In this document: positions 19,175 to 54,498 of the stretch, one piece after another
How the letters are laid out: the number at the start of each line of letters is the position of its first letter
How positions within the stretch are numbered: position 1 is the first letter of the stretch
Source of the DNA: a candidate division WWE3 bacterium
GTDB taxonomy: Bacteria; Patescibacteriota; WWE3; UBA101185; UBA10185
DNA length: 64,000 bases
NCBI GenBank assembly: GCA_052035175.1
Contig: JBPOHV010000001.1
Span: forward strand, 366,773-430,772
Direction: 5' to 3'
Position numbers and translations under genes: made by a program
The notes under the pieces: model-generated
The model's database searches: none
Told to the model about the DNA's origin: nothing
Seen by the model: only the letters and a program-made list of their open reading frames with translations

Positions 19175-19194
19175 GGGCTAAGCCCGGCTTAGCC
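19175..19194. repeat. GC-rich palindromic element GGGCTAAGCC-CGG-CTTAGCC
   Basis: Near-perfect 9-bp inverted repeat in AT-rich intergenic DNA. Member of a five-copy family. Confidence 0.7.
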
Positions 19195-19204
19195 TTTTTG
19201 TTTG

Positions 19205-19786
19205 TTAATGTTTTCGAGCTATAAAGTTATAAAAATGCCAGTGTTTATCTTCGCCACTAGCAGTTGATCCATCAAACTCACGTTCGGTTAGCTTTATTAT
19301 ATGCAGTGGCTCCAACAAACTTTCTGCTCTTTCGCGTGTAACAAATGTCAACTCTGTATCTTTTCTGTTCCACGAAGCATTTACACCAAAAAATTGACCC
19401 GTAAAAACACCCTGAGGTTTTAGTGCTAGTTGTATATTAGCTATCAACGCATCAAAGTTATCTGGTTTTTCAAATGGTAAAGACCATTGGGCTGTCACTA
19501 AATCGAATGTGTTTGGTGTGAATTCAAATTCGTCAAATTTTCTTTGAAATACAAGCAATCTTGCGTCTTGAATTTGTGTTTTATACTTTATAATTATTGG
19601 GTTTTTCTCGACTGCGCATACTAAATTGAAACCGCTATCTAGTAAATACTTAGAATCTCTTAGTGTTCCAGCGCCAAGATCCAAGGCAGTATCGCGTACT
19701 TTTACATAATTTACTGCTTCAACTAAAAGCTTGTTTGGTGGTTCTTGTTCTGTTTTTTCATAATATTCATTTGGTGTTATTGCCAT
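19205..19786 (-). CDS. Class I SAM-dependent methyltransferase (TehB-like small-molecule MTase)
   Basis: Motif I LDLGAGTLRDSKYLL, acidic post-I residue, 193 aa. Bracketed by GC-rich palindromic repeats. Confidence 0.7.
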   Translation of the reverse strand: MAITPNEYYEKTEQEPPNKLLVEAVNYVKVRDTALDLGAGTLRDSKYLLDSGFNLVCAVEKNPIIIKYKTQIQDARLLVFQRKFDEFEFTPNTFDLVTAQWSLPFEKPDNFDALIANIQLALKPQGVFTGQFFGVNASWNRKDTELTFVTRERAESLLEPLHIIKLTEREFDGSTASGEDKHWHFYNFIARKH

Positions 19787-19796
19787 GTTTTTTAAA

Positions 19797-19817
19797 AGGC
19801 TAAGCCGGGCCTAGCCC
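19797..19817. repeat. GC-rich palindromic element AGGCTAAGCC-GGG-CCTAGCCC
   Basis: Same family. Lies on the other side of the methyltransferase gene. Confidence 0.7.
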
Positions 19818-31905: not shown

Positions 31906-32535
31906 TTAAGAATATCTTCTAACAACTCCAGTTACTTTACCTTGTACTTGTAAATTTTCAGCGTCTACATATATAGGTGCCATATTTTTGTTTGCGGGTT
32001 GCAACCTAATTTGACCATTTTTTTCTCTATAAAAAGTTTTGAGCGTAGCAAAGTTGTTATCGATCAAAGCTACTACTATATCGCCATCGTTGGCGGTTTC
32101 TTGTTGTTGTATAACAACATGATCTCCATCAAAGATACCCATATCAATCATGGAGTCACCTCTGACTTGTAACACATAACTTCTTCGATTTTTTGAAACC
32201 ATGTCGCTAGAGACCAAAACTGTTTCATATTGGTTTTCGTTTGCTTCAATAGGTTCTCCAGCTGCAATGAATCCCATTAGTGGAAGCTCTATCGAGTTAA
32301 GCGACGCGTTGTAAGACATGTCTGTAATTTCTATACCTCTTACAGCGCCATCATAGCGTTTGATAACGCCTTTCTTTTCTAAGGTTTGTAGGTGTTCGTG
32401 GACTGTAGCTAAGGAAGAAAGGCTCATAGCATCTGCGATTTCTCGAAGAGTAGGGGAGCTGTTGTTAACTTGTATATACTGAGAAATGTATTCTATTATT
32501 TGTTTTTGTTTTTTATATAAAGTTATAGGACTCAT
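31906..32535 (-). CDS. lexA: LexA repressor
   Basis: N-terminal wHTH (SPTLREIADAMSLSSLATVHEHLQTLEKKGVI) plus the S24 autopeptidase domain (Ser in VRGDSMIDMGIFDGD, Lys in ATLKTF). Confidence 0.9.
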   Translation of the reverse strand: MSPITLYKKQKQIIEYISQYIQVNNSSPTLREIADAMSLSSLATVHEHLQTLEKKGVIKRYDGAVRGIEITDMSYNASLNSIELPLMGFIAAGEPIEANENQYETVLVSSDMVSKNRRSYVLQVRGDSMIDMGIFDGDHVVIQQQETANDGDIVVALIDNNFATLKTFYREKNGQIRLQPANKNMAPIYVDAENLQVQGKVTGVVRRYS

Positions 32536-32547
32536 ATGTTATTAGAG

Positions 32548-32573
32548 TACCGAAAGTAACCCGAATATGTCAA
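32548..32573 (-). promoter_or_regulatory. lexA promoter with candidate SOS operator (ATATTCGGGTTAC-TTTCGG) between -35 TTGACA and the -10
   Basis: Minus-strand reading: TTGACATATTCGGGTTACTTTCGGTACTCTAAT...ATG. The TTCGGG core is shared with the uvrB and uvrA regions. Confidence 0.5.
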
Positions 32574-32588
32574 GGGGGAATTTTATAT

Positions 32589-32612
32589 AGGGCTAAGCCT
32601 GGTTAAACCCTA
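32589..32612. repeat. GC-rich palindromic element GGGCTAAGCC-TGG-TTAAACCC
   Basis: Same family as 19175 and 19797. Left boundary of the GC-rich cassette. Confidence 0.65.
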
Positions 32613-32687
32613 TATTAGTCTGATACAAATTGTACTATAATTGTACTATTTGGCTGTTTTGGCTTATAATTGCTTTAGCAATCTTCT

Positions 32688-32707
32688 GGGATGCGGAGGC
32701 GTCAAGG
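32688..32707. repeat. Left arm of 20-bp inverted repeat flanking the small secreted-protein ORF
   Basis: GGGATGCGGAGGCGTCAAGG. Its partner is CAAGGATGCCTCCGCATCCCC at 33058-33078 (18 of 20 complementary). Confidence 0.65.
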
Positions 32708-32722
32708 AAAAGGAGGTTTGAT

Positions 32723-33046
32723 ATGAAATTCATTAAGGGTGCAGTTTTTGCACTCTTTTTAATTCTCATAGCTGGGATGGCGGTGCAAGCCGCTGCCCAG
32801 CCTGCACGCGATAGCGTGCAAATCACACTCGCCAGCGGTGTCGCTGGTGAGATCACTGAAAAAACTGTGAGCTGCGGAAAAGTGCAGCTTACTTTTTTTT
32901 CAGACAATACACTTTTCGCCCCTGGAGTACGGGGCGAAAGAGGAAAGCTGATTTTCGAAGGGGGAATTGAACTTACGGTCACCGTCCAAAACTTGGACGG
33001 TGGTATAAAGTACACTGCGACCTCAGTCGGGTGTACTTTTAATTAA
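32723..33046 (+). CDS. Small secreted protein (signal peptide, two Cys), GC-rich cassette gene
   Basis: Strong RBS AAGGAGG 6 nt upstream of the ATG. Signal peptide MKFIKGAVFALFLILIAGMAVQAAAQ. The ORF is flanked by a 20-bp inverted repeat. Confidence 0.5.
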   Translation: MKFIKGAVFALFLILIAGMAVQAAAQPARDSVQITLASGVAGEITEKTVSCGKVQLTFFSDNTLFAPGVRGERGKLIFEGGIELTVTVQNLDGGIKYTATSVGCTFN

Positions 33047-33057
33047 GTTTCAAATCA

Positions 33058-33078
33058 CAAGGATGCCTCCGCATCCCC
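33058..33078. repeat. Right arm of the inverted repeat flanking the small secreted-protein ORF
   Basis: See 32688-32707. Confidence 0.65.
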
Positions 33079-33091
33079 CTTCGTACTAATA

Positions 33092-33111
33092 GGGTTTAAC
33101 CAGGTTTAACC
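33092..33111. repeat. GC-rich palindromic element GGGTTTAACC-AGG-TTTAACC (reverse orientation of 32589 copy)
   Basis: Near reverse-complement of 32591-32610. Confidence 0.6.
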
Positions 33112-33190
33112 TTTTAATCTTATTATCCAATTTATGCTAATCATTGCTACTAGCGTATGCTATTAGAAGTAAACATAGGTAGTTGTGCGA

Positions 33191-33213
33191 CAGGCTTAGC
33201 CTGGCCTAGCCCT
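33191..33213. repeat. GC-rich palindromic element AGGCTTAGCC-TGG-CCTAGCCC
   Basis: Same family. Right boundary, just upstream of uvrB. Confidence 0.65.
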
Positions 33214-33227
33214 TAGGTCATATGTTA

Positions 33228-33250
33228 GAATGTTCGGGATATGTTCGATA
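33228..33250 (+). promoter_or_regulatory. Candidate SOS operator at uvrB: GAATGTTCGGGATATGTTCGATA, overlapping -10 TAGAAT and the start codon
   Basis: TTCGGG core plus a second GTTCG half 11 bp downstream. TAGAAT at 33226-33231. Confidence 0.45.
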
Positions 33251-35316
33251 TTTTTTCATCTTATTCACCAACAGGAGATCAGCCAACGGCAATAGACCAG
33301 CTTACTAAAGGAGTACTTGGTGGTGTTAAAAACCAAACATTATTAGGAGTAACCGGTAGCGGTAAAACATTTACAATAGCAAACGTTATAAAAAATGTTT
33401 CAAAACCTACACTTATACTTTCACACAATAAAACTTTGGCTGCACAGCTTTATCAAGAGTTCAGAGAATTTTTTCCGAATAATGCAGTTGAATACTTTGT
33501 AAGCTATTATGACTATTATCAGCCAGAAAGTTATATCCCATCTACAGATACTTATATAGAAAAAGACGCAGATATAAACGACATGATTGATCGACTTAGG
33601 CTGTCTGCGACTACATCGTTGATGACGCGCAAAGACGTTATTGTAATTTCTTCAGTTTCTTGCATTTATAATCTTGGTTCACCTGCAGAATATTCAAAAA
33701 TGGCTATCGAAGTACGTAAAGGTATGAAGATACGTGCTGTCGATTTACTCAAAAGACTTTCACAAATATATTACGAACGTAATGAGTTTGAGTTTAAGCG
33801 CGGTACATATCGTGTGCGCGGTGATGTCATAGATATATTTCCAGCATATGTAGAGTATGCAGTGCGGTTGGAAATATTTGATGATATTTTGGTAAATGCT
33901 TCATTCTTTGATCCTTTGACTGGTGACGCGTTAAATACTGTAGGTGCTCCAAGTACAAGACAAGGCAGCCATACTCGGTCTGTTACTCAGGATGAAAAAG
34001 ATTATGCTCTGCATCGTTTGAATGAAAGTGGGCTTATTTTAATATATCCAGCCAAACACTATATTGCTGCAGAAGATAGGCGAGAATCGGCAATTGAACA
34101 AATTAAATCTGATTTAGCTTTACGCTTACAAGACTTGAAGCAGCAAGGAAGAAGCATCGAAGCTTATCGCCTTGAGCAAAGAACAAATTATGATTTGGAA
34201 ATGATGGAAGAAATAGGTTACTGCAAAGGCATTGAAAACTATTCTAGATATTTCGACGGACGAAACCCTGGTGATACACCTTATTCTTTGTTGGAGTTCT
34301 TTCCAAAAGATTATTTGTTAGTAATAGATGAGTCACATATAACTGTACCTCAAGTAAGAGGTATGTATAACGGTGATCGTTCGCGTAAGCAAACACTTAT
34401 AGATTATGGGTTTAGACTGCCATCGGCTTTGGATAACAGGCCACTAAACTTCACAGAATTTATGTCAAAGCTCAATCAAGCTATATATATAAGCGCGACT
34501 CCTTCAGAATGGGAGTTGAGTATGTCTGCAGGACATGTAGCTGAGCAATTGATTAGGCCAACAGGTATAGTTGACCCGGAAGTTACTATTTTGCCAACTC
34601 AAAATCAGATACACGATTTGTTAGATCGCATTAAAGCAAAAGTTGCAAATAATCAAAGAGTTTTGGTGACTACTTTGACTAAAAAAATGTCTGAAGAGTT
34701 GGCATCTTTTTTGACTGAAAAAGGTATTAAGGTTACTTATTTGCATTCTGATGTAGAAACTTTGGAACGGACAAATATTTTGGATGATTTGCGAAAAGGT
34801 GAGTATGACGTTTTGGTAGGCATAAACCTTTTGCGCGAAGGTTTGGATTTACCAGAAGTTTCTTTGGTAGCAATTTTGGATGCTGATAAAGAAGGCTTCT
34901 TGAGATCTGATACTTCCTTGATTCAAACTATGGGACGTGCGGCGCGCCACTTGCAAGGCGAAGTCGTGATGTATGCTGATAGTGTAACTGGCAGTATGCA
35001 GCGTGCGCTCGACGAAGTGGCGCGCCGCCGTGAAATCCAAAGAGCATACAACGAAAAACACCATATATCTCCAACTCAAATCTTCAAACCAATACGCCAA
35101 AAGTTAATCGATGAATATGTCGAGGAAATTGTTAATAAAGCTAAGAAATTTGAGACCGATGTAGATTATAAATCTATGCCACCAAAAGAAGTAAATAAAG
35201 AGGTAAAACGCATGGAAGCCGAAATGAAACTTGAAGCCGAGAATTTAAACTTTGAACGCGCAGCTGCTTTGCGAGATAAAATAAGAGAAATTAAAGGCTA
35301 TTTATCCAAGCAATAG
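33241..35316 (+). CDS. uvrB: Excinuclease ABC subunit B
   Basis: N-terminus SPTGDQPTAIDQL, Walker A GVTGSGKT, helicase motifs, C-terminal UVR domain (AENLNFERAAALRDKI). Confidence 0.95.
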   Translation: MFDIFSSYSPTGDQPTAIDQLTKGVLGGVKNQTLLGVTGSGKTFTIANVIKNVSKPTLILSHNKTLAAQLYQEFREFFPNNAVEYFVSYYDYYQPESYIPSTDTYIEKDADINDMIDRLRLSATTSLMTRKDVIVISSVSCIYNLGSPAEYSKMAIEVRKGMKIRAVDLLKRLSQIYYERNEFEFKRGTYRVRGDVIDIFPAYVEYAVRLEIFDDILVNASFFDPLTGDALNTVGAPSTRQGSHTRSVTQDEKDYALHRLNESGLILIYPAKHYIAAEDRRESAIEQIKSDLALRLQDLKQQGRSIEAYRLEQRTNYDLEMMEEIGYCKGIENYSRYFDGRNPGDTPYSLLEFFPKDYLLVIDESHITVPQVRGMYNGDRSRKQTLIDYGFRLPSALDNRPLNFTEFMSKLNQAIYISATPSEWELSMSAGHVAEQLIRPTGIVDPEVTILPTQNQIHDLLDRIKAKVANNQRVLVTTLTKKMSEELASFLTEKGIKVTYLHSDVETLERTNILDDLRKGEYDVLVGINLLREGLDLPEVSLVAILDADKEGFLRSDTSLIQTMGRAARHLQGEVVMYADSVTGSMQRALDEVARRREIQRAYNEKHHISPTQIFKPIRQKLIDEYVEEIVNKAKKFETDVDYKSMPPKEVNKEVKRMEAEMKLEAENLNFERAAALRDKIREIKGYLSKQ

Positions 35317-38058: not shown

Positions 38059-38167
38059 CTAAAATGTTTATTGGCTTCAAGCTATTTACTCATTTTCGCT
38101 CAGCCGCCACGCCTTGCTATAGGATAACATCTTTTCTAATAATCTTATGTTCAAAAGGAGTTAGCAA

Positions 38168-38467
38168 ATGAAAACCGGCTGGTTTTTTGCAATAATCTTC
38201 GCAGTAGTGGCTTTAATCATAGCGACACATCTAGCTTATCAACAGCCATATCTGCAAACCCTGGATCTTTATCCGGGGTCTCACGTCAAATTAAATAATG
38301 TGGATTTTTTCATGGATGAAGAAACTGGTTTTTCTGCTTCGGCTTCATGCTTGGGATCTCTGAAGCTTTATGGTGACCAGAAAGATCATTATGGATTTAC
38401 GTGTAACAACATCGACTTTGATGTTGTGTACAGCGAATCTGTAACAAAGATTTCTTGGGCTCCCTAG
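38168..38467 (+). CDS. small membrane-anchored protein (island gene 1)
   Basis: RBS AAAGGAG 7 nt upstream of the ATG. N-terminal TM WFFAIIFAVVALIIATHLAY. 99 aa. Confidence 0.4.
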   Translation: MKTGWFFAIIFAVVALIIATHLAYQQPYLQTLDLYPGSHVKLNNVDFFMDEETGFSASASCLGSLKLYGDQKDHYGFTCNNIDFDVVYSESVTKISWAP

Positions 38468-38473
38468 GAAAAG

Positions 38474-38542
38474 AGCGGGTTTGGACTCGTAGATACAGAT
38501 TAGCTTTGGCTAGTTTTTGTTTACGGTCCGACCCGCTTTTTT
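38474..38542 (+). terminator. Long-loop rho-independent terminator
   Basis: AGCGGGT...(inner GGAC..GTCC stem)...ACCCGC followed by TTTTTT. Confidence 0.5.
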
Positions 38543-38778
38543 AGTTGTGTTAGTAAGCATTTTTCTACTCAGTTTTACTCAAGCCGATATAACCTATAGC
38601 TCGTATCATATCTTCATACAATTGAATAGAACTTTGACATCCAAATACTTTTCACTAGAACTCTAGAAGGAGGCTTTTTAGGCTTAACTGCGCTGTCGAG
38701 CTTATAAAGCCTTCTTTTATGAGAAGGTTCCCCAATGTGGGGAAATGCTAATAATCGCCGCAGTTGTGGCCAAGTCAA

Positions 38779-39076
38779 GGAGCTTGATATGTCTCGAATC
38801 AATGAACTTTTCACAAATCCAGTTGTAACCTTTTTGTGGTTTTTAATCCCGACCGGGGTACTCTGGTTCTTTGGGGTTGTGGCCCTTGGTATGGGTAGCA
38901 GTCTTGGAGATCTCTTGTTCGGAGCTGTCTTTGGCGGCGCCGTAACTGCATTCTTTTTTACAGTGTCTATGGAGGCGAAAAGTCGTGGGGAGCCCGGTTG
39001 GTTTTACACCTTCTTGATCTTTGGGCTCATTTCCATTGCAATTCCCATCACTGCTTTCATTAAAGCAGCTTATTAG
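38779..39076 (+). CDS. small 3-TM membrane protein (island gene 2)
   Basis: RBS AAGGAG 7 nt upstream of ATG 38779. Hydrophobic throughout. Preceded by the hairpin TTCCCCAATGTGGGGAA. Confidence 0.45.
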
Positions 39077-39085
39077 GCTGTACCT

Positions 39086-39148
39086 AGGTGGGCGAGGTGC
39101 TCATGGATAAAGATCTTAAGATCTCACACCATGGCACCTCGCTCACTA
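39086..39148 (+). repeat. Structured hairpin repeat, copy 1 (GGTGGGCGAGGTGC...GCACCTCGCTCAC)
   Basis: Imperfect stem of about 17 bp with a roughly 22-nt loop containing the GATCTTAAGATC palindrome. Homologous to 39999-40059, with compensatory substitutions between the copies. Confidence 0.7.
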
Positions 39149-39264
39149 AATCAATTACTAGAAAAAAGTTTGTACTAGATTTCAAAAAATGAAAGTTAGT
39201 ATGAGCTTTCTTCTGGAAAAATCTAGATGAAAGGTATTATGTTGCGTTGAGTAAGGAGTTAGTA

Positions 39265-39972
39265 ATGTCTCAGAAAATCTTGTCTTTTGGTCTCGCCCTG
39301 TTCGTGGCCTTTATGGCCGCTTGCAGCGGAGGTGGAGAACCGCAGTCTAGTGTAGTAGTAACTGCATATGATTGCAAAGGCGATGTCTTGGATCTCCAAA
39401 ATCGAGACCAGTTTATCCTAAACGGTCAAGAAGTTTTATTTGCGGATCAAGGATTCGCAAATTATCAATTTCTTGACACAGACTGGAACCAGCTCGCTGC
39501 TGGTCCAGATAAAGTTCCGTCAGATTCAATTCATTTAGATGATGAAAAAGTCTCGTTGGCCGGATCTGACTGGAAAATCACAAACATAGGTACCACTGTA
39601 GAGGGGAAAAGCAGAATATGCTTTGAGGAATGGAACGTGAATTACATTCCTCCAACAGTGACGCCAACGCCAACCCCGGTTGGGGAAATTGGTCTGGCGC
39701 TAACCCCAACTCCAGCTTATTCCTGTCCCCAAGGCGAATTCAACTATGTTGAAATCGAAGCTGGGAATCCCCATTACTCTTCTCTTGATGGTGATACCAC
39801 TGTGGTTATCGAAAAAAATACAAGTGGTTTTTCCATTGAGGTGGTCGGAGAGTTTTACGTCAGTGGAGACGTAAGTATTGGTTATGGAGAAGAAGCCATA
39901 ATTGGCGATTACCGATTCCACATCATTCGTGGTTATGAGGACGCATTATGTGTCCTTGTGACTCCTCCTTAA
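39265..39972 (+). CDS. Putative lipoprotein (island gene 3)
   Basis: RBS AAGGAGTTAGTA then ATG. Signal plus lipobox-like FVAFMAAC|SGG. Pro/Thr linker PPTVTPTPTPVGEIGLALTPTP. Confidence 0.5.
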   Translation: MSQKILSFGLALFVAFMAACSGGGEPQSSVVVTAYDCKGDVLDLQNRDQFILNGQEVLFADQGFANYQFLDTDWNQLAAGPDKVPSDSIHLDDEKVSLAGSDWKITNIGTTVEGKSRICFEEWNVNYIPPTVTPTPTPVGEIGLALTPTPAYSCPQGEFNYVEIEAGNPHYSSLDGDTTVVIEKNTSGFSIEVVGEFYVSGDVSIGYGEEAIIGDYRFHIIRGYEDALCVLVTPP

Positions 39973-39998
39973 CCTAAGGAGTAAAACTAAGGAAATCA

Positions 39999-40059
39999 AG
40001 GTGGGCGAGATGCTCGTGAAGAAGATCGCATGATCAGATATCACGGCATCCGCCCACTA
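39999..40059 (+). repeat. Structured hairpin repeat, copy 2 (GGTGGGCGAGATGC...GCATCCGCCCAC)
   Basis: Same architecture as 39086-39148. The GGTGC/GCACC to GATGC/GCATC and CATGG/CCATG to CGTG/CACG changes keep the pairing intact. Confidence 0.7.
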
Positions 40060-40153
40060 AACCAAGAAGAAAGTTTCTATCAGCCTTTGGATCTCTGAAA
40101 GCAAAGATTGGTAGAAGCCTTCTGCTAAGAAGGTAAACCACAAGGAGGCAGTA

Positions 40154-40603
40154 ATGTTTTTTGTAGCGATATTGCGTAAGTTTTGGTGGATCTTGCCTGT
40201 GGCAATGGTGATTATGTTAATCGCTATGGCTATGGGAGTAGGAGATCCCGCTCCGGTTTTACCAGAGACAGAAACACCCGCCAATGAAGTTAGTGCATTA
40301 TGTACTGATTTCTTCGGCTGGTCCGTTGTGGATAGTACTGACTTTGTCAGCGCTGAATATGTGAATGGCGACATTTACGTAGAGTGGACCAATAGTGGTC
40401 CGAATCCACGCATTATGGGGGTGAACTTTTATGGCTGGATCGTCAAAGATCCACAGCCTGGTGTACATCTGGAAATTCCTCAGGGTATTCTGCTCCTCAG
40501 TGACGATGGACAAATATTGTCCATCTTACCTACAGGGCAGGATCCAGTGGTGATTGAAATAGGCACAACCTGCCTGCAAAAGCCACTGCCTACCAGAGGA
40601 TAA
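40154..40603 (+). CDS. small exported protein (island gene 4)
   Basis: RBS AAGGAGG 5 nt upstream of the ATG. N-terminal TM/signal WWILPVAMVIMLIAMAMG. 149 aa. Confidence 0.45.
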   Translation: MFFVAILRKFWWILPVAMVIMLIAMAMGVGDPAPVLPETETPANEVSALCTDFFGWSVVDSTDFVSAEYVNGDIYVEWTNSGPNPRIMGVNFYGWIVKDPQPGVHLEIPQGILLLSDDGQILSILPTGQDPVVIEIGTTCLQKPLPTRG

Positions 40604-40606
40604 ATT

Positions 40607-40671
40607 GAGCGGTAGATCGCTGTAGATAGTCCAAATCAGGACGCAATCTCTACGCGATCTACCGCTTTTTC
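40607..40671 (+). terminator. Rho-independent terminator with large structured loop
   Basis: GAGCGGTAGATCGC...GCGATCTACCGC followed by TTTTTC. Perfect 13-bp stem. Confidence 0.65.
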
Positions 40672-40786
40672 AGTTTTATACTAATGACTCATCAAATGAT
40701 ACTAGTTCTGCTTAACTCAGTTTCACTCATGCCCTCATACCTCATAGTGCTAGTATGCCGCTATTAATCTGATTAAAGGAGATGCC

Positions 40787-40990
40787 ATGTTAGTACTAAC
40801 TAAGAATACCGAACTTACCTTGTTTGGTATAAAAATTACGTTTGTAAATAACAGTTTGGATTTTTCAGCTGCATCCGAACTGGATGTTTTGTATGTCCCA
40901 GATTCCAATCCAAGAATTGTAAATGTTTGTTATCGGAATCGATCAATTTTTGTTGTGCAGCTACACGACATGCTTATTATTTCATGGTAG
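40787..40990 (+). CDS. small hypothetical protein (island gene 5, 67 aa)
   Basis: RBS AAAGGAG 5 nt upstream of the ATG. No TM helix. Confidence 0.3.
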   Translation: MLVLTKNTELTLFGIKITFVNNSLDFSAASELDVLYVPDSNPRIVNVCYRNRSIFVVQLHDMLIISW

Positions 40991-41048
40991 TTACCTTCAA
41001 TACCCAACAGTTTGGCATAAAGACCAAACTACAAATAAGGAGAATCTG

Positions 41049-41303
41049 ATGAAACGCTTTATGAAAAACCCGTTGATAACCTGGCTCGTACTTCTTGTTT
41101 TACTAACACCATTTTGGTGGTTAGCAAATGGAGGGGGCCGTGAGATAGATCTACCGCTAGCTCTGTCGGGGGTTAATGCATACATATTAATGTATGCATT
41201 GATTACTCGTGAAAAGGGTGACGCGCTCTTTTTGTCATTAGTCTATGCCGTTGCAGGACTTGTGATGCTAGGGTTTTCTTGTTATCTGATTATTATAGGG
41301 TAG
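41049..41303 (+). CDS. small 2-3 TM membrane protein (island gene 6)
   Basis: RBS AAGGAG 6 nt upstream of ATG 41049. Begins MKRFMKNPLITWLVLLVLLTPFWW. Confidence 0.4.
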   Translation: MKRFMKNPLITWLVLLVLLTPFWWLANGGGREIDLPLALSGVNAYILMYALITREKGDALFLSLVYAVAGLVMLGFSCYLIIIG

Positions 41304-41310
41304 AAAGAAA

Positions 41311-41373
41311 AAGGCGGTAGGTTTGCTGAGTACATTAATCAATGATTGATGCGCTCGCGATCTACCGCTTTTT
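41311..41373. terminator. Bidirectional rho-independent terminator sharing its 3' arm with the 40607-40671 terminator
   Basis: GAAAAAGGCGGTAG...GCGATCTACCGC followed by TTTTTC. Sits between convergent genes. The 18-nt 3' arm is identical to the 40654-40671 arm. Confidence 0.6.
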
Positions 41374-41379
41374 CTTTTC

Positions 41380-42783
41380 TTATTTATAGTAATCGTTTAA
41401 TTGACTATATGGCACTATCTTCATATCTGGGTTTTGTGTTAGCAAGTCTTTTTGTAACTGCAGATCTAACGTATCATCTCTGAATATCACAGCTTTTATA
41501 TCTTTACTAGAAACATGCATATTTCTTGGTTGTTTCGTATAACCTTTACTTGGATGCAACACGCCTTCTACGTATACACCATTGCCCTTCATTGCGCCTG
41601 CTTCAGGCGTTCCTGGTAAATATGTATAGCTCATGTGTTTTTCTATTTCAAATACTTCTCGGAATGCATGTACCATTCTTGCATCAACAAGTGAAAGCAT
41701 TTTGATTAAAGTTCCATCTGCAAATTCATGTCGTCCTATTGGTTCTCCTCGATCACCATATGTATATTCAACTCTTAAGGCTAGTGCTTCGTTGAAATGA
41801 ACAAAGATAGGTCTTTTTTTGCCCCATTCGTAGCGCTCGCCAGTTTTTTTTGAAATAAGTGCCCCGTACAATACAGAGTAAGGTTCGTTATTAACGGTTG
41901 CTTCTAATTGGGCTGGTGCGGTTGCATTCGAAAAAATAATAGTGTCGTATATTTCTAGTATCTGTTGTTCTAGTTCGTCTACTTGCATTGTGTCTATTAA
42001 TTCCGCTGCTTGAGAGTCCACTATCTCAATAGGTGAATCGCCAAGAGTGTGTTTTAATAATTCAATTGCTTCCCTCTGTTCGTTGGAATCAGCAATATTG
42101 TTGTATATTGTTTCTACCGCTTTTTCTATTTCGAGTTTTATTTTGTTTTGTATTTTTTCGCGTGTTAAAAACTTGCCAACTTTTTCAATAACTGCTATAG
42201 CCGCATTTTCACTTGTTTGCTTATTAATAGCAGTAGTTATGTTTTTTTCTGTAAATAGTGGTTCTTCTTGTATATTCTCAACTAGATGTATAAACTGAAT
42301 AACGGTTTGATTAGGCGCAGAAAAGTTTTCTAAGAAAAGTTCGTTTTTAGCCTCATCACAATCAACATCAGCGATGTTTACGCCTTTAACCTGTATTTGT
42401 ACACCACTCTCAGACTTAACCAGGCTATATTCATCTGGTAATCTTTTTTTTAATATTTCGATATCAGTATTTAATTTGGCAAATAGTATGGAGTGATCGC
42501 TTGCATTTGTTTTAAAAGAAATAGACATGAGTTCATTATCAGGAGTTTCCATTCTTATACTAGGTCCTGCTCCTAGTGTATCGATATATACTTTACACGC
42601 TTTAACCAAAGTGTCTGCGTGTGCAGTTTCATCTTCTATTACTTGTGTAAAATTCGCATACCTAGCAATTTTTTTGGTGTATGTTTCTAATAGTTCCAAC
42701 TTTAAATTTTCTTGGCTTGTTTGAACCTCATCAGCAGTGTTTTCAATATGAACTTCTTTTTCACTGGTTATATCATCAAGCAT
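41380..42783 (-). CDS. hypothetical protein (467 aa, acidic N-terminal half)
   Basis: Long ORF with no recognisable catalytic motif. Co-directional with the upstream 94-aa gene and separated from it by 8 bp. Confidence 0.5.
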   Translation of the reverse strand: MLDDITSEKEVHIENTADEVQTSQENLKLELLETYTKKIARYANFTQVIEDETAHADTLVKACKVYIDTLGAGPSIRMETPDNELMSISFKTNASDHSILFAKLNTDIEILKKRLPDEYSLVKSESGVQIQVKGVNIADVDCDEAKNELFLENFSAPNQTVIQFIHLVENIQEEPLFTEKNITTAINKQTSENAAIAVIEKVGKFLTREKIQNKIKLEIEKAVETIYNNIADSNEQREAIELLKHTLGDSPIEIVDSQAAELIDTMQVDELEQQILEIYDTIIFSNATAPAQLEATVNNEPYSVLYGALISKKTGERYEWGKKRPIFVHFNEALALRVEYTYGDRGEPIGRHEFADGTLIKMLSLVDARMVHAFREVFEIEKHMSYTYLPGTPEAGAMKGNGVYVEGVLHPSKGYTKQPRNMHVSSKDIKAVIFRDDTLDLQLQKDLLTQNPDMKIVPYSQLNDYYK

Positions 42784-53708: not shown

Positions 53709-54498
53709 AGAAAGTTTTTTGTCAAAAGGTAAAAACTTTTTTTCAAAATCTTTTTTCAAAGATCGCAGACTTAAAAAGCTGGTAATCAAAACCTTAAAAA
53801 TATTAATTGCATTTAGTGCTGTAAGTAGTGTCGCTTATTTATTTATTATGACAAAGACATTTACTATCAGCGATGTAAAGTTTGTCGGTACCGGTGAATT
53901 TGTAAATTCGACAGACGTCAAAGCTGTAGCTGCAAATAATGCTTTCGGTAAAAATATATTTTTGTATTCATCTCAGAGCTTAGCGACGACTTTAAAGTCA
54001 TCATTCCTTGGTGCAAAAGATTTTGCGGTTACCAAAGTTTTACCCAATACTTTGGTGATTCATATAACTCAAAGAGTTCCGATAGCTGTTTTGGATACTC
54101 CTGATCTGACAAAGCATTTTCTTGTAGATGATGAGGGTTATGTTTTGGGTGAGATTACCGATAAAGACTATAGCGATCTTCCTAGACTGACGTATTTTGA
54201 AGATTTAAATGTAGGTGTTTTTATAAACAAAAGTGTTGTGCCAAAATATATGCAGCTTTTAGCAGAGCTAAAAGCTGCAGAAGTAAAAATAAGTAGCATA
54301 AGCATGTATAATGACTACACCGAGTTCTATACAGAAAACGGAGTTCAAGTGTTGTTGCCAAGCGAAAAGGTAAATAAAAAGTATATATTTTCGATAAAAG
54401 CTGTGATATCCAAAGCTTTAGAGCTAGGAAAAGTTTTACAGAAGATTGATTTACGATACGAAAAAGTAATAGTATTATTTAATACAGAAAAGCTATAA
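53653..54498 (+). CDS. ftsQ: Cell division protein FtsQ/DivIB-like
   Basis: Basic N-terminus, single TM (LKILIAFSAVSSVAYLFI), then FTISDVKFVGTGEF (POTRA-like). Sits between murG and ftsA. Start uncertain; overlaps murG by 56 nt. Confidence 0.6.
   Translation: MIVQQKRLPKRQSKYPSNKESFLSKGKNFFSKSFFKDRRLKKLVIKTLKILIAFSAVSSVAYLFIMTKTFTISDVKFVGTGEFVNSTDVKAVAANNAFGKNIFLYSSQSLATTLKSSFLGAKDFAVTKVLPNTLVIHITQRVPIAVLDTPDLTKHFLVDDEGYVLGEITDKDYSDLPRLTYFEDLNVGVFINKSVVPKYMQLLAELKAAEVKISSISMYNDYTEFYTENGVQVLLPSEKVNKKYIFSIKAVISKALELGKVLQKIDLRYEKVIVLFNTEKL

What the first reader, a model, noticed from the sequence alone, without database searches (positions are those of the whole stretch)
32588..33213. Cassette-like GC-rich insert: secreted small protein flanked by a 20-bp inverted repeat and by palindromic boundary elements
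Between lexA and uvrB sits a ~600-bp segment that is much GC-richer than the flanks (for example GTGCAAGCCGCTGCCCAGCCTGCACGCGATAGCGTGC). It contains one ORF (32723-33046), a signal-peptide protein of 108 aa with two Cys and a strong AAGGAGG RBS. The ORF is bracketed by GGGATGCGGAGGCGTCAAGG (32688-32707) and its near reverse complement CAAGGATGCCTCCGCATCCCC (33058-33078). That whole unit is in turn bracketed by members of the GGCTAAGCC-NGG palindromic family (32589, 33092, 33191). The arrangement looks like a miniature gene cassette or MITE-like insertion carrying a secreted peptide. Alternatively the long-range inverted repeat could pair in the mRNA and occlude the RBS, which would be a translational switch.
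Basis: seen in the sequence. Interest (0 to 1): 0.65.

Follow-up and report, generated by a model that had tools for sequence, protein, structure and literature searches.

The report
Hairpin-dense secreted-protein gene insert

Summary
A GC-richer segment (0.48-0.57 against about 0.36) lies between lexA (31906-32535, -) and uvrB (33241-35316, +). It carries an SD-led 107-aa ORF with a signal peptide, a 16-nt inverted repeat (15/16) and three copies of a palindrome family.

New findings:
1. The ORF is a genuine coding gene. It has one homologue among about 15 billion proteins (39% identity, both Cys conserved; codon-position identity .52/.62/.32).
2. The insert is absent from 14 WWE3 relatives that keep lexA and uvrB adjacent. 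The gap there varies from 81 to 1214 nt.
3. A relative with about 90% identical uvrB DNA carries the divergent homologue. Similarity resumes exactly at the 3' arm, and there is no 5' arm.
4. The left boundary is an inverted duplicate of the right boundary, interrupted by 58 nt that look like a promoter.
5. The mRNA is predicted to be extraordinarily structured: z -13 against shuffles and -8.7 against synonymous-codon permutation. Five of the window's nine strict hairpins with stems of 10 bp or more lie inside 324 nt.
6. The repeat forms an end-closing helix (P about 1.0), but the SD stays about 63% unpaired, so an RBS-occlusion switch is not supported.

No evidence of mobility was found. The purpose of the hairpins is unknown.

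The parts
31906..32535 (-). lexA (209 aa), left neighbour; its mRNA appears leaderless
   Evidence: Pfam LexA_DNA_bind and Peptidase_S24. TTGACA at 32568-32573 on the - strand, TACTCT -10, then 8 nt to the ATG (read).
32549..32565 (+). LexA-type direct-repeat operator ACCGAA-N6-CCGAA within the lexA promoter
   Evidence: The only 0-mismatch site in 64 kb. The motif is conserved at this position in all WWE3 relatives.
32586..32613 (.). Palindromic element A (REP/terminator-like family); left outer arm of the composite inverted repeat
   Evidence: (I1, I6). Predicted hairpin -8.5 (+) and -11.4 (-) kcal/mol, with no U-tract on either strand.
32591..32629 (.). Outer block of the left inverted duplicate; mirrors 33080-33111
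   Evidence: Colinear alignment scores 77 against 48.3 +/- 4.9 for shuffles (maximum 64.7).
32630..32687 (+). 58-nt segment that interrupts the left repeat. It holds the tandem repeat AATTGTACTAT x2 (32628-32649) and a promoter-like TTGTAC-18 nt-TATAAT (32641-32670). The promoter is inferred.
   Evidence: (D7), sequence. Not called by the strict consensus scan.
32688..32703 (+). 5' arm of the 16-nt inverted repeat, in the 5' UTR; also a local hairpin with a GGAG loop
32710..32716 (+). Shine-Dalgarno AAGGAGG; predicted 63% unpaired
   Evidence: SD-like motifs are found before only 6 of 52 genes in the window.
32723..33046 (+). ORF107: exported all-beta protein with two Cys; a real coding sequence
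   Evidence: Homologue P0004, 39% identity over 79 aa. Codon-position identity .52/.62/.32.
32735..33039 (+). Run of near-perfect hairpins inside the CDS: 32735-57, 32771-801, 32803-20, 32828-51, 32856-903 (inner stem followed by T8), 32913-40, 32979-33003, 33007-39
   Evidence: Synonymous-permutation z -8.7.
33062..33077 (+). 3' arm of the repeat, 16 nt after the stop codon; a local hairpin with a CUCC loop; conserved in L069
33089..33116 (+). Palindromic element B: weak hairpin followed by TTTTAATC; the likely terminator of the ORF transcript; right outer arm of the composite repeat
   Evidence: (I1), (-5.1 kcal/mol).
33191..33213 (.). Palindromic element C, lying where the uvrB -35 region would be
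   Evidence: (I3, I7). Present as the single element in L069.
33223..33249 (+). uvrB extended -10 (TGTTAGAAT, 33223-33231) and a reverse-oriented LexA-type direct repeat (33233-33249, - strand) that overlaps the start codon
   Evidence: 1 mismatch; sequence. Identical in L069.
33241..35316 (+). uvrB (691 aa), right neighbour

Best explanation
This is a lineage-specific accessory gene, not a non-coding element. It encodes a small exported all-beta protein with two cysteines and lies in the gap between the back-to-back lexA and uvrB promoters of a candidate division WWE3 (Patescibacteria) bacterium. That gap varies widely in length and content across the clade.

The gene is a self-contained, leadered, SD-dependent transcription unit in a genome that is otherwise largely leaderless. 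Its left boundary arose as an inverted duplication of its right boundary (the 3' hairpin, the CCCCCTTCGTACTAAT stretch and half of a REP/terminator-like palindrome). That duplicate was later split by a 58-nt promoter-like segment.

In the mRNA, the inner 16 nt of the duplication pair with the 3' copy. This clamps the two ends of a transcript whose coding region is folded into about nine short, near-perfect hairpins. The helix next to the clamp also brings the start and stop codons together.

The most likely role (inferred, not shown) is a compact, nuclease-resistant mRNA that is translated slowly. The SD would be presented in an open internal loop rather than hidden. The flanking palindromes act as terminator or insulator hairpins that keep this transcript out of the two SOS genes.
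For: Shown:
- Coding status. There is one homologue with both Cys and the TSVGC[TA]F motif conserved, and codon-position identity follows pos2 > pos1 > pos3. P0004 begins with its own lipoprotein-type signal, which supports the ATG at 32723.
- Insert status. It is absent from all relatives that keep the lexA-uvrB synteny, where the gap ranges from 81 to 1511 nt.
- Atypical features. GC 0.48 against 0.36, and a strong SD when only 6 of 52 genes have one.
- Composite inverted duplication.
- Structure. MFE -198 kcal/mol, z -13.1 on the + strand against -10.0 on the - strand. Synonymous-codon permutation gives z -8.7, against -1.0 for lexA and +0.3 for uvrB. Five of the nine strict hairpins in 64 kb lie here. 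No cluster of 3 or more was found in 1067 kb-strand of comparison loci.
- The homologue's mRNA is also hyper-structured: z -7.2 and -7.6.
- Closing helix probability 1.00, with the SD 0.63 unpaired.
- The 5' arm must be in the mRNA, because it lies between the nearest TATAAT and the SD. The 3' arm lies before the first U-tract hairpin.

Inferred: the promoter position, termination at B, and the stabilising or throttling role.
Against: - The 5' arm is missing from the only homologue, which appears leaderless. The clamp is therefore not a conserved requirement of the family.
- The hairpins are not in register between the two alleles: alifold on the codon alignment gives z -0.4. No specific RNA architecture is conserved.
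- The sense-over-antisense stability bias (16 against 6 G-U pairs) is shared by most + strand genes in this window. It therefore does not prove selection at the RNA level.
- Element A has no U-tract, so an insulator role for it is weak.
- There are no transcript data, only two sequences, and no experimental support for export.
Confidence: 0.6

Rival explanations
1. The repeats act on DNA. The roughly 507-531-bp unit would then be a non-autonomous mobile cassette (MIC/MITE-like, moved in trans) or an invertible segment. The RNA clamp would be incidental.
For: - Perfect 16-bp inner terminal repeats (32598-32613 / 33089-33104), extending to a colinear composite repeat of about 45 nt.
- Insert absent from relatives.
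- Atypical GC and SD usage.
- In L069 the homology breakpoint falls exactly at the 3' arm, and the left side abuts what appears to be a truncated gene, glycosyltransferase-like by inspection only.
- A second gene (19205-19786) is also flanked by inverted copies of the palindrome family.
Against: - Single copy in 64 kb. No hit to the repeat in 68 loci, or in phage, plasmid, viral and JGI metagenome collections.
- No target-site duplication seen by eye.
- No transposase, integrase or invertase within +/-10 kb.
- The putative promoter lies inside the repeat-bounded segment, so inversion would switch nothing.
- The palindromes are self-complementary, which inflates apparent inverted repeats between family members.
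Confidence: 0.17
2. The hairpins are a mutational by-product. Repeated template-switch events between nearby complementary sequences would create perfect inverted repeats in a fast-evolving gene. The hairpin density would then have no function.
For: - Stems are uninterrupted (10-12 bp) rather than the bulged helices typical of selected RNAs.
- Hairpins are not positionally conserved between alleles. Both alleles are hairpin-rich, and the same conserved codons (Leu-Ala) lie in a 5' arm in one allele and a 3' arm in the other.
- The protein is only 39% identical while the flanking uvrB DNA is 90% identical.
- Template switching is documented to create and maintain perfect RNA hairpins (PMC8794818).
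Against: - It does not explain why 5 of the 9 strict hairpins in 64 kb fall in one 324-nt gene.
- It does not explain the raised GC at all three codon positions.
- It does not explain why the three CDSs with the strongest synonymous-permutation signal of 53 tested in the window are all orphan ORFs with hydrophobic or signal-like N-termini.
- Purifying selection on the protein is evident, and multi-nucleotide template-switch events would often be deleterious.
Confidence: 0.2
3. The protein is this lineage's counterpart of the Gram-positive SOS cell-division inhibitors (YneA, SosA, ChiZ, DivS). Those are small, fast-evolving, single-TM exported proteins encoded divergently next to lexA.
For: - Adjacent to lexA and divergent from it.
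- 107 aa, with an N-terminal hydrophobic segment and an extracytoplasmic C-terminal part, by inspection.
- Very poorly conserved.
- The known inhibitors share this synteny and topology despite having little sequence similarity to one another (PMC6851548).
- Five WWE3 relatives have a different small single-TM ORF (52-54 aa) in the same gap.
Against: - No LexA-type direct repeat near its putative promoter. The only two good sites in 64 kb belong to lexA and uvrB.
- No LysM domain.
- Absent from most relatives.
- The N-terminus looks like a cleavable signal peptide, and a lipoprotein signal in P0004, rather than a membrane anchor.
- In L069 the homologue is not next to lexA.
Confidence: 0.12
4. 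The RNA is the main product. It would be a dual-function or regulatory structured RNA (as RNAIII encodes delta-haemolysin), or a hok-like type I toxin mRNA held inactive by 5'-3' fold-back. The ORF would be secondary.
For: - z -13 and a closing helix with P = 1.0.
- Sits as a GC-rich island in an AT-rich genome.
- Terminator-like hairpins lie inside the CDS in both alleles.
- Lies between SOS genes, as tisB-type toxins do.
Against: - No Rfam family within reach: best hit 19.7 bits against a gathering score of 50.
- No conserved consensus structure between the two alleles.
- A clear protein-level selection signature.
- The SD is not sequestered.
- The protein is 107-130 aa with a folded-looking beta domain, unlike toxins of under 60 aa.
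- No antisense promoter found.
Confidence: 0.08

Closest known systems
Mobile insertion cassettes (MICs) and MITEs: non-autonomous elements with IS-type terminal inverted repeats, some carrying passenger genes (from my own knowledge)
   Same: A short unit of about 0.5 kb bounded by inverted repeats and carrying one non-transposase gene. Present or absent among relatives.
   Different: Single copy, no target-site duplication, and no cognate IS or transposase seen. The 'TIR' overlaps a self-complementary terminator-like palindrome and is interrupted on one side by 58 nt.
REP/BIME-type repetitive extragenic palindromes and intrinsic terminators
   Same: The GGYYWARCC-N-GGYYWARCC doublets are short intergenic palindromes repeated in the genome. 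The best copies (19176, 19798) form hairpins of -12 to -14 kcal/mol with U-tracts at gene ends.
   Different: Only 5 copies are seen in 64 kb. Three of them are degenerate and clustered in this one gap. No RAYT-type transposase is in view.
hok-family type I toxin mRNAs with 5'-3' fold-back inhibition (from my own knowledge)
   Same: A compact, highly structured mRNA of about 400 nt whose 5' and 3' ends pair. It encodes a small protein with a hydrophobic N-terminus.
   Different: The SD is predicted to be open. No antisense RNA was found. The protein is an exported beta domain of 107-130 aa. The fold-back is absent from the homologue.
Gram-positive SOS cell-division inhibitors YneA, SosA, ChiZ and DivS (PMC6851548)
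   Same: A small, poorly conserved, exported or membrane protein encoded divergently next to lexA.
   Different: No LexA box at its own promoter, no LysM domain, a signal that looks cleavable, and no conservation across the clade.
Dual-function RNAs such as S. aureus RNAIII (from my own knowledge)
   Same: A multi-hairpin RNA with long-range end pairing that also encodes a small secreted peptide.
   Different: Here the ORF fills almost the whole RNA and is under protein-level selection. There is no conserved architecture and no known targets.
Integron gene cassettes (attC)
   Same: A single promoter-proximal ORF followed by an imperfect palindromic site at the cassette boundary.
   Different: The hairpin has a 5-6-bp stem and 4-nt loop (14-16 nt in all), far shorter than attC. 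There is no integrase, attI or cassette array, and the gene has its own promoter-like region.

Membership tests
MITE / mobile insertion cassette | Terminal inverted repeats | tested here: met
   28 nt at 86%, with the inner 16 nt perfect. The composite colinear repeat scores 77 against 48 +/- 5 for shuffles.
MITE / mobile insertion cassette | Target-site duplication flanking the repeats | tested here: not met
   No direct duplication at 32585/33117 or at 32597/33105, by inspection.
MITE / mobile insertion cassette | Multiple copies, or a cognate IS with the same ends | tested here: not met
   The repeat core is unique in 64 kb. It is absent from 67 other loci and from phage, plasmid, viral and metagenome collections. 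The rest of the genome was not available.
Integron cassette | attC site of about 57-141 bp, with an integrase and attI nearby | tested here: not met
   The 3' hairpin has a 5-6-bp stem and 4-nt loop. There is no integrase among the genes within +/-10 kb.
Inverton (invertible promoter segment) | Inverted repeats flanking a promoter whose flipping switches a neighbouring gene; an invertase; both orientations present in reads | not testable with these tools
   Inverted repeats are present. However, the putative promoter and its gene both lie inside the segment, no invertase is seen, and no reads are available. The two assemblies are identical.
Type I toxin mRNA (hok-like) | 5'-3' fold-back that blocks translation initiation | tested here: not met
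   The fold-back helix has P = 1.0, but the SD is 0.63 unpaired with the 3' arm and 0.51 without it.
Type I toxin mRNA (hok-like) | Small hydrophobic toxin (usually under 60 aa) with a cis-antisense RNA | tested here: not met
   The protein is 107 aa with a beta-rich exported domain. No antisense promoter was found by the consensus scan.
YneA/SosA-type SOS division inhibitor | Encoded adjacent to and divergent from lexA | tested here: met
YneA/SosA-type SOS division inhibitor | LexA operator controlling its promoter | tested here: not met
   ACCGAA-N6-CCGAA with 1 mismatch or fewer occurs only at 32549-65 and 33233-49. There is none between 32600 and 32720.
YneA/SosA-type SOS division inhibitor | Single N-terminal TM segment with an extracellular C-terminus; small size | tested here: inconclusive
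   A hydrophobic N-terminus of 16 residues followed by AxA-type sites, judged by inspection only. No topology predictor was available. P0004 has a lipobox-like FFASC.
Known structured RNA families (Rfam 15) | Match reaching the family gathering score | tested here: not met
   No hit at gathering score in the whole window. The best sub-threshold hit is 19.7 bits against 50.
Protein-coding gene | Homologue with a codon-position substitution pattern pos2 > pos1 > pos3 and no frame disruption | tested here: met
   Identity .62.52 and .32 over 101 aligned codons. All gaps are whole codons.
REP/terminator-like palindrome family | Repeated intergenic palindrome that forms a stable hairpin, often at gene 3' ends | tested here: met
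   5 sites against 0.13 expected. D and E form hairpins of -12 to -14 kcal/mol with U-tracts at gene ends. A, B and C are weaker copies.

The most novel reading that the evidence does not exclude
Hairpin-dense, SD-led, GC-rich mRNAs may be a distinct expression class for orphan exported proteins in an otherwise leaderless CPR genome. ORF107 is the extreme case. Window genes 38168 and 39247, and to a lesser extent 40154, share some of these traits. In this reading the density of short local hairpins is itself the selected trait, not any fixed architecture. It could armour the mRNA against nucleases, make completion of transcription depend on coupled translation through the in-CDS terminator-like hairpins, or let the RNA act in its own right. 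The end-closing helix, which brings the start and stop codons together, would be a recent refinement.
Probability: 0.2. Interest if true: 0.7.

Novelty: new variant of a known kind. Interest (0 to 1): 0.5.

Why it matters
If the hairpin density is selected, it would show the stability of a whole mRNA fold shaping codon choice throughout a bacterial gene without any conserved architecture. It would also tie that trait to the poorly understood surface and secreted orphan proteins through which CPR episymbionts probably interact with their hosts.

The locus also shows how a tightly regulated divergent SOS promoter pair tolerates inserted genes. Both lexA and uvrB appear leaderless, and uvrB uses an extended -10, so the DNA between them is free to vary.

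If the hairpins are instead a by-product of template switching, the locus would be a compact bacterial example of that mechanism remodelling a coding sequence.

Tried and rejected
- **Non-coding RNA with a spurious ORF.** This was my first reading, from z -13 and GC-richness. I rejected it because of homologue P0004 and the codon-position pattern.
- **Conserved RNA architecture.** Alifold on the codon alignment gives z -0.4.
- **Known RNA family.** None found.
- **Known protein family or fold.**
  - Pfam, NCBIfam and PHROGs give nothing significant.
  - The weak hits to the giant proteins P0002 and P0003 fall in two unrelated repeat types (HCBP_related-like and CARDB) and look like generic beta-strand similarity.
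  - The AF2 models are poor (pLDDT 51 and 58), with no PDB fold or sequence match.
- **Element B plus its downstream AT-rich stretch as a decayed duplicate of element C plus the uvrB 5' end.** The alignment score equals the shuffle mean.
- **More alleles.** No new alleles turned up:
  - two metagenome scans, one on the uvrB start 30-mer and one on the 3'-arm flank 22-mer;
  - viral scans;
  - phage and plasmid BLAST;
  - a UvrB N-terminus protein search, whose best hit was 80% identical;
  - exact-protein look-ups.
- **GC of paired against unpaired bases as a test of selection.** It does not discriminate from shuffles.
- **Sense/antisense G-U asymmetry as proof of RNA-level selection.** Most + strand genes in the window share the bias.
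- **The two 467-aa ORFs flanking the 38-41 kb island as paralogues.** They are unrelated.
- **The T8 run as unusual.** There are 13 runs of 8 or more T/A in the window, fewer than the 37 expected from shuffles.
Full report
**Setting.**
- The window comes from a candidate division WWE3 (Patescibacteria/CPR) genome. The LexA protein is 67-76% identical to those of 17 WWE3-type MAGs.
- An identical 20-kb stretch is present in a Logan assembly.
- lexA (31906-32535, -) and uvrB (33241-35316, +) are divergent neighbours separated by 705 nt.
- The same divergent pairing is kept in 14 WWE3 genomes and about 18 further CPR genomes.
- The gap length ranges from 81 to 1511 nt. No relative shows nucleotide or protein similarity to the window's segment.
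- The shortest gaps (81-137 nt) hold only two conserved motifs. One is a direct repeat TACCGAA-N4-TACCGAA inside the lexA promoter. The other is a related repeat before an extended -10 of uvrB.
- In the window, the good matches to ACCGAA-N6-CCGAA are exactly these two: 32549-65, and 33233-49 in reverse orientation. They bracket the insert.
- Direct-repeat LexA motifs in Patescibacteria were reported by Sanchez-Osuna et al. 2017, which is cited in PMC7739468. I could not read that paper itself.
- Both lexA and uvrB have a -10 element 8-9 nt before the ATG, so they appear leaderless.

**Checking the observation.**
- The GC rise is real.
- The ORF is 107 aa with AAGGAGG upstream.
- The inverted repeat is 16 nt at 15/16. 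Its 13-nt core is unique to these two places in 64 kb.
- The three palindromes belong to a five-member family, GGYYWARCC-N-GGYYWARCC. It is strongly over-represented and absent from 67 loci of other genomes.
- The two best family members (19176, 19798) fold into hairpins of -12 to -14 kcal/mol with U-tracts at gene ends. The family therefore behaves like REP/terminator hairpins.
- A, B and C in this gap are weaker copies. Only B has a downstream U-tract on the ORF strand.

**Is the ORF real?**
- My first suspicion was a structured non-coding RNA. The segment 32677-33120 folds at -198 kcal/mol, with z -13.1 on the + strand and -10.0 on the - strand. The word-indexed protein search found only the ORF itself.
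- An exhaustive HMMER search of 1.84 billion representatives then found P0004. This is a 130-aa protein with a lipoprotein-type signal and 39% identity over 79 residues. Both cysteines and the C-terminal TSVGC[TA]F motif are conserved.
- Over 101 aligned codons the nucleotide identity is .52.62 and .32 at positions 1, 2 and 3, and all gaps are whole codons. That is the signature of purifying selection on a protein.
- P0004's start aligns with the ATG at 32723, not with the TTG used in the 138-aa NCBI call.
- No family, fold or phage relative could be assigned. Structure models are all-beta but of low confidence.

**The informative relative.**
- P0004 lies on a 1033-bp contig, L069.
- Its last 263 nt are 90% identical to window 33193-33455, which covers element C, the uvrB promoter and the uvrB 5' end.
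- A further 43 nt are 93% identical to 33062-33104.
- Similarity therefore begins exactly at the 3' arm, while the ORFs are only 39% identical.
- L069 has only the 3' copy of the hairpin. It also lacks the roughly 100 nt between B and C.
- Its ORF has a -10-like box 7 nt before the ATG, so it appears leaderless.
- Upstream it abuts what appears to be a truncated gene rather than lexA. That gene looks like a glycosyltransferase only by inspection.
- The 3' hairpin is therefore ancestral to both alleles, and the 5' arm is an innovation of the window's lineage.

**Origin of the 5' arm.**
- The left side aligns colinearly with the reverse complement of the right side, 33065-33111. The aligned left blocks are 32591-32629 and 32688-32700.
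- The alignment scores 77, against 48.3 +/- 4.9 for shuffles.
- On the left, the two blocks are separated by 58 nt (32630-32687).
- This insertion carries an 11-nt tandem repeat and a TTGTAC-18-TATAAT promoter-like arrangement.

**The RNA.**
- The 5' arm lies between the nearest TATAAT and the SD. The 3' arm lies between the stop codon and the first U-tract hairpin (B). Both should therefore be in the mRNA.
- In the ensemble they pair with probability 1.00. The next helix pairs 32724-30 with 33046-52, which brings the start and stop codons together.
- The SD is 0.63 unpaired with the 3' arm and 0.51 without it. The AUG is mostly paired in every truncation tested. An occlusion switch driven by the repeat is not supported.

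**The unexpected part.**
- The coding region contains uninterrupted stems of 10-12 bp with 3-8-nt loops at 32735-57, 32828-51, 32867-92, 32913-40 and 32978-33004. Several 6-9-bp stems lie between them.
- With strict criteria the whole 64-kb window has nine such hairpins on the + strand, and five are in this 324-nt ORF.
- Sixty-eight comparison loci (1067 kb-strand) average 0.14 per kb and never have three within 400 nt.
- Permuting synonymous codons, which keeps the protein and the codon usage, raises the MFE from -153 to -99.5 +/- 6.1 kcal/mol (z -8.7). lexA gives -1.0 and uvrB +0.3.
- The L069 allele behaves in the same way (z -7.6, and z -7.2 against dinucleotide shuffles). It has four terminator-like hairpins inside its CDS, against 1.0 expected.
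- Yet the hairpins are not in register. Alifold on the codon alignment is no better than codon-column shuffles (z -0.4). For example, the conserved Leu-Ala codons lie in a 5' arm in one allele and in a 3' arm in the other.
- What is shared is hairpin density, not architecture.
- That pattern fits two explanations. One is selection for overall foldedness. The other is recurrent template switching, which can create perfect hairpins (PMC8794818).
- I could not separate the two. The G-U asymmetry (16 on + against 6 on -) is confounded by strand composition. The GC partition between paired and unpaired bases is uninformative.

**Context in the genome.**
- Only 6 of 52 genes have an SD-like motif, and many have TATAAT 7-10 nt before the start.
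- The SD-led genes include ORF107 and genes of a GC-richer island at 38.1-41.4 kb. That island encodes orphan ORFs with hydrophobic or signal-like N-termini.
- Among 53 genes, the three most negative synonymous-permutation z-scores belong to 39247 (a lipoprotein by inspection), ORF107 and 38168.
- ORF107 is therefore the extreme member of a small set of atypical accessory genes. This argues for acquisition from elsewhere, or for a distinct mode of expression.

**Function of the protein.**
- Its position invites comparison with the Gram-positive SOS division inhibitors. Those are small, single-TM proteins encoded divergently next to lexA and are barely conserved (PMC6851548).
- Five relatives do have a different 52-54-aa single-TM ORF in this gap.
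- However, ORF107 has no LexA-type repeat at its own promoter. It also has no LysM domain and is absent from most relatives. I rate this reading at about 0.12.

**Verdict.**
The 'cassette' reading is right in that this is an inserted, atypical, insulated gene whose right boundary coincides with the 3' hairpin.
- Mobility is unsupported, and the RBS-occlusion idea is not supported.
- The insertion itself is ordinary accessory-gene biology at a permissive site.
- The extreme, allele-specific hairpin density of a protein-coding mRNA, closed by a recently duplicated end-pairing helix, is unusual and unexplained.

Noticed in passing
window 38100-41400: A GC-richer island (0.40-0.46) of orphan ORFs with hydrophobic or signal-like N-termini, by inspection: 38168, 38735, 39247 (lipoprotein-like), 40154 and 40923. 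Several have strong SD motifs and strongly structured sense mRNAs (synonymous-permutation z -5.6, -4.1 and -4.6). Large intergenic hairpins lie at 39088-39146 and 40608-40666.
   Followed up: partly
window, all 52 gene starts: The genome appears largely leaderless. Only 6 of 52 genes have an SD-like motif, and many have TATAAT 7-10 nt upstream of the ATG. The SD-led genes cluster in the GC-rich accessory regions.
   Followed up: partly
window 19176-19194 and 19798-19816: Two strong copies of the GGCTAAGCC-N-GGCTTAGCC palindrome, in inverted orientation, flank a TehB-like methyltransferase gene (19205-19786, -). The second copy overlaps the stop codon of an MGMT-DNA-binding-domain gene. The family is absent from 67 loci of other genomes.
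   Followed up: partly
window 32549-32565 and 33233-33249: A direct-repeat LexA-type operator (ACCGAA-N6-CCGAA). At uvrB it is reversed and lies downstream of the -10, overlapping the start codon. In relatives it lies upstream of the -10, in the space that element C occupies here.
   Followed up: partly
L004, L005, L006, L017 (lexA-uvrB gap, about 100-260 nt from uvrB, on the lexA strand); L016: A conserved 52-aa single-TM ORF (for example MDETRWARYEAEARRAAVMVFWGEVFKILGTLLTSWVTYVAALIIWGLTKIF) occupies the same gap in other WWE3 genomes. L016 has a 54-aa analogue. These are candidates for SOS-linked small membrane proteins.
   Followed up: no
L014 and L015, lexA-uvrB gap: A GC-rich insert of about 100 nt (gap GC 0.45-0.50) contains a long hairpin in L014 (z down to -4.3). 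It shows no detectable nucleotide similarity to the window's insert.
   Followed up: no
window 32628-32649: A perfect 11-nt tandem repeat, AATTGTACTAT x2. It has the same 11-nt period as the LexA operator but different half-sites, and it overlaps the putative -35 of the ORF promoter. It may be a binding site for another regulator.
   Followed up: no
window 33105-33192 against L069: About 100 nt between elements B and C is missing in L069, which has a single hybrid element. This is an indel whose ends lie in two copies of the palindrome family, which suggests the family is recombinogenic.
   Followed up: partly
window 54251-54279: A perfect 13-bp palindrome, TGCAGCTTTTAGC-AGA-GCTAAAAGCTGCA. It is the longest uninterrupted hairpin in the window.
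   Followed up: no
window 32856-32903: Inside the ORF there is an A6 tract, a 10-bp hairpin and a T8 tract, which is the shape of a bidirectional intrinsic terminator. The L069 allele has a 13-bp hairpin with a U-rich tail at roughly the same place, around the first Cys.
   Followed up: partly
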